Below are positions 20,701-24,660 of a DNA stretch of 64,000 nucleotides, piece by piece. Positions within the stretch are counted from its first letter, which is position 1. Every line of letters begins with the position of its first letter. The translations under genes were made by a program, and so were the position numbers. The stretch comes from the human T2T-CHM13v2.0 reference genome, Homo sapiens, in NCBI RefSeq assembly GCF_009914755.1, contig NC_060941.1; one strand, 5' to 3'. The notes beneath the pieces are model-generated. The model was not told the DNA's origin. It did not search any database and saw only the letters and a list, made by a program, of their open reading frames with translations.

Positions 20701-23500
20701 AAGGCCATCCCTGAGTGCTGGGTTAGCTTCATACATGTAGCTTCTAACCTCCTTTAGGCTTCAGGATTCTGGACATTGAACCGTGCTTCCTTTATCAACA
20801 ATGATATGGAAAGCTGAGTATCTGGAAGGACTACTAAAGGAATTCTTTTTCAGAAACTTTTGCCACGTATTAGGGAACCTACTTCAGTCTGAAGTCCTCA
20901 GCAGCCAGTTTAGCATTATCAATTTGCAGGACACACCGAGCATTTTGCAGTTGAGCATCCTTAATCTGGAAAATACATGAGAAAGAATGACATTTTCTTT
21001 TTTATTTATTTATTTATTTATTTATTTATTTATTTATTTATTGAGACAGAATCTTGCTCTGTTGCCCAGACTGGAGTGCAATGGTACAATCTCGGCTCAC
21101 TGTAACCTCTGCCTCCCAGGTTCAAGCAATTATCCTGCCTCAGCCTCCCGAGTAGCTGGGGTTACAGGCATCCGCCACCATGCCCGGCTAATTTTTGCAT
21201 TTTTAGTAGAGACAGCATTTTGCCATGTTGGCCAGGCTGGTCTTGAAGTTCTGACCTCAGGTGATCTGCCTGCCTCGGCCTCCCAAAGTGCTGGGATTAC
21301 AGGCGTGAGCCACCGTGCCCGGCCAAGAATGACATTTTCAACTGGATAGGAGTTTACAAGGATTTAGTTTATCCCCAGCTACAGTGACTATTATGTCAAA
21401 AATGATGTTCATTTCAAGTATTTCTACATGAAAATATATAGAAAAAATAATGACATAGTTATTTAACATAACAGAGTCATAAAATGCAACTCTAGATGCC
21501 CCAGGGTTTGGTCTACTTTCTTGTGATTTTACAGAAGGATAATTTAACTCAACTTGAGTCATCACACCTTATTGAGTGCCTTGCCTTTGATGTTTCTACT
21601 TAGGACATTTCTTTTAGCCCCTGTGGTCTGGTGAACTCCCATTCCTCCCTCATGTCTCAGGTTCGACAACATTGCTTCATAGGAGCCTTCACAGATGCTC
21701 TCAAAACTGAACTGGATGATCTGCCTGTGCTCTCATTATCCCTCTGTGTGCTGGTCCCTCTGTCCATCCCTGTATCCTCATAAATCATATTGTGTCCACC
21801 ATAATATTCCTCAGTCCCCAGCATGGTGCCCAGCACCTAGTTAGTGTTCATTCAGTATTGGCTGAATGAAAGAACATGATGCATGAAAGAACGAAATGCA
21901 TGATGGAGGCATATAGATGAAAAATCTACTTGCAGAAGATGTTACAATGACATTTCTCTTTCAATGGACCCAGTTTTGGAGAGGGCTGCTTCCTATGGTT
22001 GGGACTGTCCAGCTCAATGGGACGGATGGCCTGTGCCTGTGTATTTCAGATGAACCAAACTAGAGTCAGAAACACGAGACAGGTGTGGTTCGAACATTTT
22101 TAGTGAGAGCTTGCGAAGGATGAACTTTATTCCGGAAGGGCTATTTAAATGCCATTGCTTCACATGCCCATAGTTTCTAAAATTCCAAAGTAACTTCCCA
22201 TGGAGTCCGAATCAAATTGCCCTGATGTTTAGTACAACTCAAGAAAAACAGACTTGCTGGTAAGTAAATGCGCTTTGCTCTAAAGGAGTATGAATCTTAA
22301 CACAAATTACAGTGAACACTTTTCTTAATTAGATAAGAACTTTAATTTGAAGCAAGTGCTCTGTGTCATATCTGAAATTTTCAATTAGGAGCAAAGTCTT
22401 CTGCTTTTATTCCATGAAACTGATAAAATACAGAGCTCCACCCTTTTTCTGATGACATAGGAGGAGGTTGTGATATGATTGTAATAAACATGAATTGGGG
22501 GCAATAGAACATTTTATTACTGTAGAAGTAGTTTCTGAACTGCTTGATGCTGATGGTCATGTTATTAAACAGGGCACTTAAAAATCCAGGCATCATTAAG
22601 ACCCATATTCCTGCCACACTGTTTCCACCCAGAATCACTTTGCTATTTAAATCTGCAGTACAGTATTCTAATAGTCATATTATAACATTTACTTAAATAA
22701 AAGGAGAAAAGTCTTTGAATTTACTGGGGTTTCAAAACTTGATAAGGACTAGGTGAAAAACTAAGAGAGATTTATCACGTAATTAATTTTTAGCTCTTTT
22801 CAGAAAGATTGTTCACTATACATTTAGCCCTGATGTGATAAGCTGTGACAAAGATTCATTTTATTCCGGAGGATAAAATGTTCATATTTTGTATGTAATT
22901 GTGTTAAACATTAAAAATAGCATGATTTAAGGTCATCCTATTGTACAGTCAGGTACTCCAGCACTAAAGGTAGATGAAAGAATTTTTATAGATGTAACAT
23001 TTTAGCCTAATTTGCTTTACAAAGTCCATTTGGACCTACCTAACATAGATAACCTCTTGATTTATCTTGAAGCTAAACACAGAGTAGGAAACACAAGCAT
23101 CATCTCTCACCTGACTTCGCAGCTCTTCAATTTGTCTGTAATATGCACTGTAGTCGCGACCAGCCCTCGGGGCGTTGGTTTCGTACCACTGCTTGATTTG
23201 CACTTCAAGTTTGGAGTTGGACTGCTCCAGGGTCCGCACCTTTTCTAGGTAGCTCGCTAGACGGTCATTTAGGTTCTGCATGGCCATTTTCTCATTGCCA
23301 ACAAACAGGTCCCCGCCGCCTGTGAGATCGCTCCCATAGTTCACCGTGTGTCTGGAGTTGGAGATGCGGATGCCCCGGCCTCCAGCACCCCCATAAACGC
23401 TGGGTGTCGTCCCGAGGCGCTGCATGCCCACTGTACTGACTACAGGGGCCTGCAAGGAGGAGCTCAGGCTTCTGTGGAAGCTTCTGCGACTGAAATCCAT
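14670..23500 (-). CDS. KRT20: Keratin 20 (type I, gastrointestinal/urothelial/Merkel cell); join(23111..23500,20883..20965,18924..19080,18410..18571,18123..18248,16454..16674,15689..15726,14670..14767), 424 aa
   Basis: Exons sum to 1275 nt = 424 aa + TAA; [15 protein letters not shown]...[14 protein letters not shown] matches recalled K20. Confidence 0.98.
15202..15603. mobile_element. MaLR solo LTR (MST-like), KRT20 intron 7
   Basis: TGCTATGGTTTGAATG...CAGACTAAAACA ends; gcct(t/c) target duplication. Confidence 0.85.
15689..15726 (-). CDS. KRT20: KRT20 exon 7 (38 nt)
   Basis: acag|AACTAC...AGAG|gtaagt; [12 protein letters not shown]. Confidence 0.94.
16454..16674 (-). CDS. KRT20: KRT20 exon 6 (221 nt)
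   Basis: catag|AAAGAG...TAAA|gtaagg; KESLEHTL...[14 protein letters not shown]. Confidence 0.97.
16946..17590. mobile_element. Old MaLR (MLT1-like) LTR split by an Alu
   Basis: ccattgac...ggctgggtcatgtgact...ttggttaataaaatg and ccactg...tttgaggg...tgcttaccacaacataa motifs. Confidence 0.55.
17113..17374 (-). mobile_element. 5'-truncated Alu (AluS-like), KRT20 intron 5
   Basis: 16-bp TSD GACAAATGCCTTTTCT at 17097-17112 and 17375-17390. Confidence 0.95.
17667..17870 (+). mobile_element. L1 3'-end fragment
   Basis: ...ctgtacaacaaatccccatgacacaagttt...ctgcacatgtactcctgaacttaaaag. Confidence 0.85.
18123..18248 (-). CDS. KRT20: KRT20 exon 5 (126 nt)
   Basis: tgtag|ACTGCA...ATG|gtaaag; TAVLQQQV...LQSHLSM. 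Confidence 0.97.
18410..18571 (-). CDS. KRT20: KRT20 exon 4 (162 nt)
   Basis: catag|GAAGTC...CAG|gtaacc; [22 protein letters not shown]...QFERQ. Confidence 0.97.
18924..19080 (-). CDS. KRT20: KRT20 exon 3 (157 nt)
   Basis: cacag|GTATGA...GAG|gtgaga; [18 protein letters not shown]...KKEHQE. Confidence 0.97.
19538..19864 (-). mobile_element. Alu (AluJ-like) with (TG)n tail, KRT20 intron 2
   Basis: (TG)n 19538-19570 followed by reverse-complement Alu. Confidence 0.92.
20160..20353 (-). mobile_element. Alu right-arm fragment, KRT20 intron 2
   Basis: T-rich tail plus right monomer only. Confidence 0.88.
20883..20965 (-). CDS. KRT20: KRT20 exon 2 (83 nt)
   Basis: ccag|ATTAAG...TGAA|gtaggt; [28 protein letters not shown]. 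Confidence 0.97.
20998..21324 (-). mobile_element. Full-length Alu (AluS-like) with (TAAA)n tail, KRT20 intron 1
   Basis: 15-bp TSD AAGAATGACATTTTC at 20983-20997 and 21325-21339. Confidence 0.96.
23111..23500 (-). CDS. KRT20: KRT20 exon 1 coding part (390 nt)
   Basis: ATG at 23500; donor CAG|gtgaga; [15 protein letters not shown]. Confidence 0.98.
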
Positions 23501-23579
23501 TGGAGATTCCAGGAGGGAGCACCTGTAGCTTCAGGATGGTTGGGGCAGAGTGTGTCTCATGGAGGGTGTTGAGCTAGCC

Positions 23580-23792
23580 TTTTATGAAGTCCACAGGCAA
23601 GAAACTCCTCCTCTGCTGACATGTCACTAGGATTGGCACCACAGTCCACCTTGCCTTACTTCCACGCCCCCCGCTTTGTATAGCAATATGTTAATATGCT
23701 TAATTCAATTCCAGAAAATACCACTAGAGGCATTTCTTGGAGGCTTTTATCAGGGGCAACTTTTTTTTTTTTTAATTAAACAGGTAATAAAA
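23580..23792 (-). promoter_or_regulatory. KRT20 proximal promoter: CATAAAA TATA-like box (23580-23586), KLF/SP site CCACGCCCC (23662-23670), CDX-type site GTAATAAAA (23784-23792)
   Basis: Motifs seen directly; KRT20 is a known CDX-regulated intestinal gene. Confidence 0.7.
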
Positions 23793-24353
23793 GGAAACAG
23801 GAAAGTGTATTCTTTTAGCCCATGCGCCTGCCTTGGCAGGTTTTTTTCATCCTAACATACACACAAACAATATTTACAATCCTCATGTATAATTTAGGTA
23901 TCTAAAAAGGCAGATGTGCCTACATAACTGAAAGTCACAATGGAGATAAAGGACAATGTTTGATTTGTATTGAGGAGTTGCTCTTCAGAACCTCTGTTTC
24001 ATGCTTTGCTTGTGTTTGGCTTTTAAGTTTATTGTGTTTTGGACATCTTATTTTATAAGACTATTAAAATATTTTGTACAAACACAAAACCTCGAATCCC
24101 TAAACCAGGAATGAAACCATTGTACATTTGGAGATGTAGTTTGGGGATGTGAATTAAATGAATTTAGCTGAGTGATGGATTAGATGATTTGGGAGGTTAT
24201 TTTCTTTCTATTTCTAATGTTCTATGACTAAATATTGCATTTTAGGTTTCCAGTCACCACCTGGCTTCAAGTCCTGTTACCAAGACACTTAGAATAAATC
24301 ACACAGTGCTTTGTACCTGGCATGGTATCAGGATGGGTCTCCTCTTTTGTATG

Positions 24354-24660
24354 AGGCCAGCTTAACACCCACCATGAGACAGACTCTGCCCCATCCATCC
24401 TGAAGCTACTTACAGGTGCTCCTTCTAAAGTCCCCAGTGGATTTCAGTTGCAGAAGCTTCCATGGAAGCCTGATCTTCCTTGTATGCCCCCATAATCACA
24501 GCGAGAGTGGCTGTTTATATAGGAAGGGGTGCAGGCGGGGACTTGGGACTACACTCAGCTTCCAGGGTTGGGCTGGAGGCAGCTGCTTGTGTGTGGACCT
24601 CTAGACACATGGGCATGATCTCATCGGTGGGAATCTGATTGTAAGCAACCAATAAATGCC
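24354..24660 (+). pseudogene. Inverted degenerate duplicate of KRT20 5' UTR + head-domain coding sequence (KRT20 exon 1 fragment)
   Basis: 24354-24473 is ~85% identical to the reverse complement of 23464-23580; ATG changed to GTG at 24437; translation VDFSCRSFHGSL...LGTTLSFQGWAGG vs K20 [12 protein letters not shown]...[13 protein letters not shown]. Confidence 0.9.

What the first reader, a model, noticed from the sequence alone, without database searches (positions are those of the whole stretch)
23282..24660. Head-to-head inverted copy of the KRT20 5' UTR and head domain flanking the KRT20 promoter
Seen: 24354-24660 (+) is a degenerate mirror of KRT20 23282-23580 (-). The two arms form a ~300-bp inverted repeat whose ~770-bp spacer contains the whole KRT20 upstream promoter (KLF and CDX sites). 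The copy starts at the TATA position (CATAAAAGG became GTATGAGG), has ATG changed to GTG, and ends where the rod domain begins. The inner ~120 nt are ~85% identical (14 mismatches, 2 gaps by hand), while the outer head-coding part is only roughly 60-70% identical with indels. Inference: this is an old inverted partial gene duplication. Higher identity in the non-coding/start part suggests arm-to-arm gene conversion or selection on a mirrored core promoter driving divergent transcription from shared upstream elements. I do not know of an annotation for it.
Basis: partly seen in the sequence, partly recalled or inferred. Interest (0 to 1): 0.85.

Follow-up and report, generated by a model that had tools for sequence, protein, structure and literature searches.

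The report
Dead inverted KRT20 exon-1 fragment
About 0.8 kb upstream of the keratin 20 gene lies an old, broken, back-to-front copy of the gene's first 300 bases, most likely a harmless relic that still preserves a piece of the ancestral protein-coding sequence the working human gene has since lost.

Summary
Window 24354-24658 (+) is an inverted copy of KRT20 23285-23580 (-), which runs from 23 nt upstream of the annotated start site to codon 72. The arms are separated by 773 bp (blastn E 9e-35; alignment score 116.5 against 11.7±1.6 for shuffles). It is the only other match to this sequence in the T2T genome, and RefSeq does not annotate it. Homology stops sharply at both ends, and no further KRT20-like exons follow.

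The copy is dead. The TATA box is gone, ATG has become GTG, and there are frameshifts and two in-frame stops. It keeps about 7 codons (…RKG) that whale K20 has and human K20 lacks. It also keeps Asn64 and Thr48 and lacks a one-codon insertion, so it predates those changes in the human lineage.

The inner part matches at 121/141 and the outer at 95/137; the change-point permutation gave 40/5000 for all mismatches and 2/5000 for transversions. Its cause is unresolved. It could be faster decay of the CpG/GC-rich head-coding part, an old arm-to-arm conversion, or selection.

Nothing supports a mirrored promoter. No cross-species DNA or expression data were available.

Verdict: an unannotated partial unprocessed pseudogene, of low to moderate interest.

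The parts
23285..23580 (-). Parent arm: KRT20 from -23 (inside the TATA box) through the 57-nt 5' UTR and codons 1-72 (head domain plus the first 4 residues of the Filament domain)
   Evidence: RefSeq exon 1 is 23111-23557 with CDS ending at 23500 (given annotation). Pfam Filament starts at residue 69.
24354..24658 (+). Inverted copy (partial unprocessed pseudogene fragment of KRT20), 305 nt
   Evidence: blastn E 9.3e-35. Score 116.5 against shuffles 11.7±1.6. Besides itself it matches only KRT20 exon 1 in the whole T2T genome. Among 40 keratin gene starts it matches only KRT20. No annotation lies over it.
23581..24353 (.). 773-bp spacer, the KRT20 proximal upstream region. It is AT-rich (GC 36.9%, 4 CpG) with one GC box at 23662-23669. 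The rest of the TATA box (23581-23586) sits at its edge.
   Evidence: No masked repeat of 100 nt or more lies in it.
24354..24498 (+). Inner, well-kept part of the copy. It corresponds to -23..-1, the 5' UTR (the start-site equivalent is 24377) and codons 1-21. 121/141 ungapped positions are identical, with 16 transitions and 4 transversions.
24499..24658 (+). Outer, strongly diverged part of the copy, corresponding to codons 22-72. 95/137 or 90/137 positions are identical, with 16 transitions and 26 transversions. It is still significant alone.
24437..24439 (+). Former start codon, now GTG
   Evidence: The aligner prints it as M only because table 11 reads an initial GTG as Met.
24497..24530 (+). 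Stretch holding the 20-23 extra nt of the copy. It encodes about 7 codons (…CLYRKG, 24512-24529) that whale K20 has (…SIDRKG) and human K20 lacks. Exact placement of the gap is ambiguous.
   Evidence: The DNA gap is placed at 24511-24530 or 24497-24519. Protein alignment A1. Whale sequence P0001.
24602..24604 (+). TAG stop in the frame of the former start codon. A second stop, TAA, is at 24653-24655. Frameshifting indels lie after 24473 (-2), near 24497 (+2/+3), near 24588 (-2) and after 24608 (-10).

Best explanation
A single DNA-level event copied about 300 bp of KRT20, from inside the TATA box (-23) to codon 72, and inserted it in inverted orientation 773 bp upstream of the gene. The mechanism was probably a replication template switch, or a break repaired using the nearby exon as template. 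That step is inferred.

The copy never carried the rod domain or later exons, and it has decayed as a non-functional, unannotated partial unprocessed pseudogene. It has lost the TATA box and the start codon, and it carries frameshifts and stops.

The event is old. It happened tens of millions of years ago, before the human KRT20 lineage deleted about 7 head-domain codons, gained one codon, and changed Thr48 and Asn64. The copy therefore preserves ancestral KRT20 head sequence.

I read the lower divergence of the inner 145 nt as mostly a rate effect. The outer part was CpG- and GC-rich coding sequence dropped into AT-rich DNA, so it decayed faster and in clusters. The KRT20 arm's promoter-proximal and 5' UTR part may also be constrained. 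On this reading the copy does nothing for KRT20 expression.
For: Existence and uniqueness.

Sharp ends: beyond the proximal end 730/1000 shuffles score at least as well, and beyond the distal end 452/1000 do.

No other KRT20-like exon on the + strand between 24.7 and 61 kb: besides the copy itself (E 0.004), the best + strand tblastn hits have E of 1.5 or more.

Not a retrocopy: homology starts 23 nt upstream of the annotated start site and ends inside exon 1.

Lesions: GTG in place of ATG, indels of -2, -2 and -10, TAG and TAA stops, and no Pfam match.

Fossil character: the copy and whale K20 (P0001) share the 7-column segment ending in RKG that human lacks. The copy, whale and pig (P0002) have N where human has D64. 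Copy and whale have T48. Copy and whale both lack one human codon at 60/61.

Composition: the KRT20 outer part has GC 60.5% and 10 CpG, against 53.1% and 3 CpG in the copy's outer part; the spacer is 36.9% GC. Mismatches lean towards KRT20 = G/C and copy = A/T: 19 vs 11 in the outer part and 11 vs 6 in the inner part.

Indel events are equal in the inner and outer parts, 4 and 4, which does not fit a constrained or much younger inner part.

No RefSeq functional element or + strand start is listed anywhere in the window, and there is no Rfam match.
Against: The identity step is large and survives correction. The permutation test gave 40/5000 for all mismatches (15/125 vs 47/153) and 2/5000 for transversions (4/141 vs 26/137). 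It persists at non-CpG sites, 120/139 vs 84/116, Fisher p 0.007. It also persists on a second alignment.

Human-whale protein identity is similar in the two parts: 15/21 for codons 1-21 and 32/51 for codons 22-72, counted by hand. So different constraint on the KRT20 coding arm does not explain the step within the coding sequence.

A rate effect of 2.5-fold or more is assumed, not shown. 'No function' rests on absence of annotation. I saw no CAGE, chromatin, conservation or variation data.
Confidence: 0.6

Rival explanations
1. The origin is the same, but the inner ~145 nt (promoter edge, 5' UTR, codons 1-21) were later homogenised by arm-to-arm (intrachromosomal) gene conversion. The two parts of the repeat then have different ages.
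For: The step in divergence has its best change point at 23453-23437, next to the indel-rich zone where a conversion tract would be expected to stop. The transition:transversion ratio is 16:4 in the inner part and 16:26 in the outer part, as expected for young versus near-saturated divergence. In codons 1-21 the copy shares S4, L16 and A18 with human against whale, and shares no state with whale against human. In codons 22-72 it shares T48, N64 and two indel states with whale against human.
Against: The arms are short (about 300 bp) and already diverged, which makes them poor conversion substrates (general knowledge, recalled). The three-way counts are too small to differ significantly, and whale-specific changes cannot be told apart from shared derived states with one outgroup. 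The copy also shares states with human against whale in the outer part (G25, R28, G30, T31, T32). Indel density is the same in both parts.
Confidence: 0.22
2. The inner part of the copy is kept by selection because it acts as a regulatory element. It could be a mirrored core promoter giving a divergent + strand transcript from the shared upstream region, or a bound element of the KRT20 enhancer/promoter.
For: The inner part is 85.8% identical, with stretches of 90-97% over the start-site-equivalent region (30-column sliding windows). The start-site equivalent at 24377 lies 820 bp from the KRT20 start site, within the distance usual for divergent pairs (recalled criterion). A cluster of six TAATTA sites lies just beyond the copy.
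Against: The TATA box is lost. The inner part carries four indel events, including a 4-nt insertion 30 nt after the start-site equivalent. The spacer is AT-rich with 4 CpG, unlike typical bidirectional promoters. No + strand transcript start, CAGE cluster or promoter feature appears in the RefSeq tables. No paper I found mentions it.
Confidence: 0.07
3. The two arms act at the RNA level. Any transcript spanning both forms a long hairpin that is edited, diced, or masks the KRT20 5' end. Candidates are the intron of the predicted lncRNA LOC105371777 on the + strand, or a KRT20 transcript begun far upstream.
For: RNA 23470-24465 folds with the arms paired into one long stem. The MFE is -365.1 against -261.0±8.8 kcal/mol for 20 shuffles, z -11.9. 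Both arms lie inside an intron of XR_007087471.1.
Against: The stem follows automatically from any inverted repeat. The lncRNA is a Gnomon prediction and the arms are intronic. There is no Rfam family, no evidence of small RNAs or editing, and no upstream KRT20 start is annotated.
Confidence: 0.03
4. The fragment is what remains of a complete, head-to-head inverted KRT20 paralogue whose rod-coding part and later exons were deleted.
For: Keratin clusters grew by whole-gene duplication. One paper places the origin of KRT20 itself in a duplication of KRT23 in a eutherian ancestor (PMC10026720, passage read).
Against: Similarity stops within exon 1, exactly before the most conserved keratin sequence (452/1000 shuffles score as well beyond the end). 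No other KRT20-like exon lies on the + strand up to KRT23. This reading needs a second event with a breakpoint inside exon 1.
Confidence: 0.08

Closest known systems
Unprocessed (duplicated) partial pseudogenes or gene fragments, as catalogued for many human genes, including the keratin clusters (KRT…P genes)
   Same: It is a DNA-level copy next to its parent. It includes non-transcribed sequence, lacks part of the gene, and carries disabling mutations.
   Different: It is very short (305 nt, part of one exon), inverted, and sits within 0.8 kb of the parent's own promoter. No KRT20 pseudogene is listed in RefSeq for T2T. The annotated keratin pseudogenes in the clusters span 0.7-15 kb.
Small inverted duplications made by replication template switching or break-induced repair (FoSTeS/MMBIR-type events; recalled from the literature, not read here)
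   Same: A short segment is copied in inverted orientation close to its source, with sharp ends.
   Different: Those are mostly described as recent pathogenic or polymorphic rearrangements. This one is fixed in the reference and ancient. Junction microhomology cannot be assessed without the pre-insertion sequence.
Palindromes kept alike by arm-to-arm gene conversion (e.g. human Y-chromosome palindromes; recalled)
   Same: Inverted arms surround a spacer. One part of the arms is more alike than expected from the rest.
   Different: Those arms are kilobases to megabases long and nearly identical. These are about 300 bp and 65-86% identical, so ongoing conversion is unlikely.
Bidirectional (divergent) promoters
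   Same: Two start-site-like sequences face away from each other 820 bp apart, around shared upstream DNA.
   Different: No second transcript is known. The spacer is AT-rich and CpG-poor, and the TATA box is lost on the copy's side.
Inverted-repeat pseudogene hairpins that yield endogenous small RNAs (described in mouse oocytes; recalled)
   Same: A gene piece and its inverted copy can pair in one transcript.
   Different: The arms are only 86% matched at best. There is no evidence for a spanning mature transcript or for small RNAs.

Membership tests
Unprocessed partial pseudogene (duplicated gene fragment) | Significant nucleotide homology to a parent gene, closest to that gene alone | tested here: met
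   E 9.3e-35. The only other match in the genome is KRT20 exon 1. Among 40 keratin gene starts only KRT20 matches.
Unprocessed partial pseudogene (duplicated gene fragment) | Copied as DNA: contains non-transcribed flanking sequence and shows no retrocopy features | tested here: met
   Homology starts 23 nt upstream of the annotated start site, inside the TATA box. That is only 23 nt, so this point depends on the annotated start site being right. There is no spliced exon 2 sequence and no A-run after 24658.
Unprocessed partial pseudogene (duplicated gene fragment) | Disabling lesions | tested here: met
   GTG in place of ATG, frameshifts, TAG at 24602 and TAA at 24653. No Pfam domain.
Processed pseudogene (retrocopy) | Starts at or after the start site, spans exon junctions, ends in a poly(A) tract, and usually lies far from the parent | tested here: not met
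   It starts upstream of the start site, ends within exon 1, has no later exons and no A tract, and lies 773 bp from the parent.
Palindrome with arm-to-arm gene conversion | Arms nearly identical over their length | tested here: not met
   211/323 columns are identical overall. The best part is 121/141.
Palindrome with arm-to-arm gene conversion | Arms more alike within a species than orthologous arms between species | not testable with these tools
   No genome of another mammal could be reached. Only two partial K20 proteins (whale, pig) were found.
Bidirectional promoter | Two opposite-strand transcription starts less than 1 kb apart | tested here: inconclusive
   The start-site equivalent at 24377 is 820 bp from 23557, but no + strand start is annotated. 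Transcription data were not available.
Bidirectional promoter | Usually CpG-rich and TATA-less (recalled property) | tested here: not met
   The spacer is 36.9% GC with 4 CpG in 773 bp. KRT20 itself is TATA-driven.
Hairpin-RNA locus from an inverted gene fragment | Both arms in one transcript, forming a long stem | tested here: inconclusive
   A stem is predicted (z -11.9). Both arms lie in an intron of a predicted lncRNA. Real transcripts were not seen.
Hairpin-RNA locus from an inverted gene fragment | Small RNAs or editing from the stem | not testable with these tools

The most novel reading that the evidence does not exclude
The inner 145 nt of the copy (promoter edge, 5' UTR, first 21 codons) are kept similar to KRT20 on purpose, by selection or by recurrent exchange between the arms. 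The palindrome-like arrangement around the 773-bp upstream region would then be part of how KRT20's very tissue-restricted transcription is set. It could work as a mirrored start site that competes for or shares the upstream elements, or as a hairpin that forms in read-through RNA.
Probability: 0.07. Interest if true: 0.55.

Novelty: new member of a known kind. Interest (0 to 1): 0.22.

Why it matters
In itself it matters little. Short dead gene fragments are common.

Four modest points stand out:
1. RefSeq lists no KRT20 pseudogene, so this is an unrecorded one.
2. It sits inside the stretch usually taken as 'the KRT20 promoter'. One paper used -2000 to +100 (PMC13255440, passages read). Reporter constructs, guide RNAs, primers and motif scans of that region therefore include a 56-nt, 91% identical mirror of the gene's 5' end.
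3. It is a dated fossil showing that the human K20 head domain lost about 7 codons and changed in at least three other places after the duplication.
4. The clear step in divergence within a 300-bp repeat is a small, clean case for testing conversion against rate heterogeneity once other genomes are aligned.

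Tried and rejected
1. The weak extension printed by the local aligner (23581-23626 vs 24318-24353) is at chance, with 730/1000 shuffles as good. The same holds for the distal flank (452/1000).

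2. Other KRT20-like exons on the + strand. None were found.

3. Origin from another keratin. Rejected.

4. Interspersed repeat. No masked repeat overlaps either arm or the spacer.

5. Known RNA family. None.

6. Dating with orthologues. The protein search with exon 1 (130 aa) sees only proteins of 72-227 aa. It returned just two K20 pieces, whale P0001 and pig P0002, among 26 hits; 256 candidates of untold source were left out by the tool. Full-length K20 orthologues could not be reached, because the spliced protein may not be typed and no stop-free reference of 243 aa or more exists. With one outgroup, shared states cannot be polarised. I recall (unchecked) that mouse K20 is about 7 residues longer than human. 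PMC5573215 (table passage) gives 424 aa for human, 434 for dog and 424 for horse, which does not settle where the deletion arose.

7. Is this architecture common among keratin genes? I surveyed 40 of 55 keratin gene starts (1.5 kb of gene plus 5 kb upstream). Only KRT20 has an upstream copy of its exon 1 or start-site region. The hits in KRT3, KRT8, KRT12, KRT24-27, KRT39 and KRT40 involve gene positions well inside intron 1, are mostly about 300 nt, and look like interspersed repeats; I did not identify them. The other 15 type I genes were not examined.

8. Staggered-break inversion of the spacer as the origin. I considered and rejected it by reasoning. It would leave the original promoter joined to the copy, not to the gene, yet the working TATA box and GC box adjoin the gene.

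9. Literature. Four searches found no mention of this repeat or of a KRT20 pseudogene. A fifth, on CK20 and pseudogenes in RT-PCR work (passages read), gave no statement about CK20 pseudogenes. Supplements were not opened. Subscription papers, such as the 1993 description of the human KRT20 gene cited in PMC2064177, are not in the library and might describe the upstream sequence.

Full report
OBSERVATION

The region 23000-25000 was read and searched for inverted repeats. Four colinear inverted pairs join KRT20's 5' end to a + strand segment 0.8 kb upstream. They are 23525-23580 / 24354-24409 (56 nt, 91%), a 15-nt pair at 93%, 23461-23516 / 24421-24476 (56 nt, 82%), and 23378-23427 / 24531-24580 (50 nt, 72%).

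A gapped blastn of 22000-23620 against 23621-27000 gives one outstanding hit, 23285-23580 vs 24354-24658 on the opposite strand. It has 323 columns, 66.9% identity, 45 gap columns and E 9.3e-35; the next hit has E 0.32. A Smith-Waterman score of 116.5 compares with 11.7±1.6 (max 17.0) in 200 shuffles. MAFFT gives 211 identical of 323 columns. The spacer is 773 bp.

LIMITS AND UNIQUENESS

Beyond the proximal end, 100 nt on each side align no better than shuffles (730/1000 as good). Beyond the distal end the result is the same (452/1000).

In KRT20 terms the copy begins at -23, inside the TATA box (CATAAAAGG, 23578-23586 on the minus strand). It ends at codon 72. Pfam's Filament domain begins at residue 69 of the exon-1 peptide, so the copy holds the 5' UTR and the head domain and stops as the rod begins.

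A search of the whole T2T genome with 24300-24720 found two places only: the segment itself, and KRT20 exon 1 (82% over 145 nt, E 1.9e-30). Matches in closed regions would not be shown.

The spliced K20 protein, built inside a script from the annotated exons, finds no further exon-like match on the + strand between the copy and KRT23. The copy itself scores E 0.004, and every other + strand hit has E of 1.5 or more.

No masked repeat of 100 nt or more overlaps the arms or the spacer. The RefSeq tables hold no transcript start, enhancer, promoter, CAGE cluster or pseudogene there. No gene named as a KRT20 pseudogene exists in the genome-wide table. Rfam finds nothing in 22500-25500 at E of 1 or less.

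STATE OF THE COPY

The former ATG is GTG at 24437-24439. Relative to KRT20 the copy has several indels:
- a 4-nt insertion and a 1-nt deletion in the UTR part;
- a 2-nt deletion after 24473;
- extra bases around 24497-24530;
- a 2-nt deletion near 24588;
- a 10-nt deletion after 24608;
- 3 nt fewer near 24625.
In the frame of the former start codon there is a TAG at 24602-24604 and a TAA at 24653-24655. Where KRT20 has its TATA box the copy reads GTATGAGG (24349-24356). The piece 24437-24601 has no Pfam match. It is a dead fragment.

A FOSSIL OF THE ANCESTRAL HEAD DOMAIN

The protein search with exon 1 could see only proteins of 72-227 aa. It returned two K20 pieces among 26 hits: a grey-whale exon-1 product (P0001, 128 aa) and a pig K20 fragment (P0002).

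In the protein alignment human K20 has a 7-column gap relative to whale (…SSIDRKG…). The copy, read in the frame of its former start codon, fills that gap with …GCLYRKG…, sharing R-K-G with whale in register. So the 20-23 'extra' nucleotides of the copy mark a deletion in the human KRT20 lineage, not an insertion in the copy.

Three more states point the same way:
- Copy, whale and pig have Asn where human has Asp64.
- Copy and whale have Thr where human has Asn48. This lies in a poorly aligned stretch, so it is less certain.
- Copy and whale both lack one codon that human has at 60/61.
The duplication therefore predates at least four changes in the human KRT20 head.

Conversely the copy shares S4, L16 and A18 with human against whale. 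On it also shares G25, R28, G30, T31 and T32 with human. With a single outgroup these may be whale-specific changes or changes made before the duplication, so the event cannot be placed relative to the human-whale split.

ROUGH AGE

From the counts, 62 of 278 ungapped sites differ. By hand this gives a Jukes-Cantor distance of 0.26. With recalled neutral rates of 1-2.2e-9 per site per year, and both arms free to change, that is about 60-130 million years. The inner part alone (K 0.157) gives about 36-78 million years, and the outer part alone (K 0.39) gives far more.

A paper states that KRT20 was detected only in Eutheria and arose from KRT23 in a eutherian ancestor (PMC10026720, passage read). 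If that is right, it caps the age. These figures are only orders of magnitude.

THE STEP IN DIVERGENCE

The inner part (23580-23437) has 121/141 identical positions, with 16 transitions and 4 transversions. The outer part (23436-23285) has 95/137, with 16 transitions and 26 transversions. Fisher p is 0.0014.

At sites that are not CpG in either arm the figures are 120/139 vs 84/116, p 0.007. On the MAFFT alignment they are 121/141 vs 90/137.

A change-point test that lets the split fall anywhere gives two results. For all mismatches it is 15/125 vs 47/153, split at 23453, with 40 of 5000 permutations as extreme. For transversions it is 4/141 vs 26/137, split at 23437, with 2 of 5000 as extreme. 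The step is therefore real and not an artefact of a chosen boundary or of present-day CpG sites.

What causes the step is open.

Points for a plain rate effect:
- The KRT20 outer part is 60.5% GC with 10 CpG. The copy's outer part is 53.1% GC with 3 CpG. The surrounding spacer is 36.9% GC.
- Mismatches lean towards G/C in KRT20 and A/T in the copy.
- Divergence in the outer part is clustered. Codons 35-38 and 42-48 are almost unrecognisable between intact 9-nt blocks.
- Both parts carry four indel events.

Points for a later conversion of the inner part:
- the size of the transversion contrast;
- the change point falling next to the indel zone;
- the fact that human and whale K20 are about equally conserved in the two parts (15/21 and 32/51, by hand), so constraint on the coding arm does not explain the step.

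Points against selection on the copy as a mirrored promoter:
- the lost TATA box;
- the indels, including a 4-nt insertion 30 nt after the start-site equivalent;
- the AT-rich, CpG-poor spacer;
- the lack of any annotated + strand start.

I rate a neutral relic with rate heterogeneity at 0.6, conversion at about 0.2 and a functional element below 0.1. The test is a multi-species alignment, which these tools do not offer.

OTHER CHECKS

An RNA spanning both arms would pair them into one long stem (996 nt, MFE -365.1 against -261.0±8.8, z -11.9). Both arms lie in an intron of the predicted lncRNA LOC105371777. This follows from any inverted repeat and is not evidence of function.

Among 40 of 55 keratin gene starts examined, only KRT20 has an upstream copy of its exon 1 or start-site region.

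ORIGIN

The copy includes 23 nt upstream of the start site and ends within exon 1, so it is not a retrocopy. A staggered-break inversion of the spacer would have left the original promoter attached to the copy rather than to the gene, which does not fit. A complete inverted paralogue later truncated inside exon 1 needs an extra event and has left no other trace.

The simplest account is a templated insertion of about 300 bp copied in reverse from the nearby exon, by template switching during replication or repair. That step is inferred.

LITERATURE

Searches for KRT20/CK20 promoter papers, for two peptide strings and 'keratin 20 head domain', for KRT20+CDX1+promoter+luciferase, and for keratin cluster pseudogenes with KRT20/KRT23 turned up no description of this repeat.

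I read passages only, from these papers:
- PMC13255440, which takes -2000 to +100 as the KRT20 promoter;
- PMC5573215, whose table gives K20 lengths of 424 aa (human), 434 aa (dog) and 424 aa (horse);
- PMC2064177, the keratin nomenclature paper;
- PMC10026720, on the origin of KRT20;
- PMC2374287, PMC2360343 and PMC2774472, which have nothing on CK20 pseudogenes.
Supplements were closed, and the original 1993 gene paper is not in the library.

VERDICT

The feature is an unannotated, ancient, inverted partial pseudogene fragment of KRT20 that sits in its own upstream region. It is a new member of a known kind. Interest is low to moderate, raised a little by its fossil content and by the unexplained but well-supported step in divergence.

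Noticed in passing
window 24737-24884: There are six palindromic TAATTA sites within 143 nt, starting 84 nt beyond the copy's end. Counting both strands gives 12, against 0.8 on average (max 6) in shuffles. TRF calls a degenerate period-8 array at 24737-24785. This could be a homeodomain-site cluster or just a decayed microsatellite.
   Followed up: partly
window 24651-24656 (+): The copy's last codons have mutated into a canonical AATAAA hexamer on the + strand. There is no evidence that it is used.
   Followed up: no
KRT20 codons 25-26 (window about 23425-23436) compared with P0001: The human K20 head domain lacks about 7 residues present in whale K20 and in the upstream fossil copy. It also has one extra codon at 60/61. 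Published lengths are 424 aa (human), 434 aa (dog) and 424 aa (horse) (PMC5573215).
   Followed up: partly
window 33844-33987 / 34335-34479; 37615-37725 / 39833-39941; 35543-35686 / 37478-37621: Three further repeat pairs lie outside the masked intervals. They are inverted at 84.8%, direct at 91.9% and direct at 80.6% identity, each 111-145 nt. They are probably edges of interspersed repeats, but I did not identify them.
   Followed up: no
genome-wide gene table (chr17:41562356-41568083 and chr12:52249832-52255457): RefSeq's T2T-CHM13 table labels KRT24 and KRT81 as 'transcribed_pseudogene'. Both are normally counted as functional keratin genes (recalled).
   Followed up: no
protein hits P0014, P0018, P0021: Keratin rod fragments are deposited as Enterococcus faecium and Staphylococcus aureus proteins, on contigs of 324-493 nt. 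This looks like animal DNA contaminating bacterial assemblies. I did not fetch or pursue them.
   Followed up: no
window 4472-4522 vs 20881-20931: KRT12 exon 2 and KRT20 exon 2 are still 84% identical over 51 nt at the DNA level. This is ordinary paralogy.
   Followed up: no
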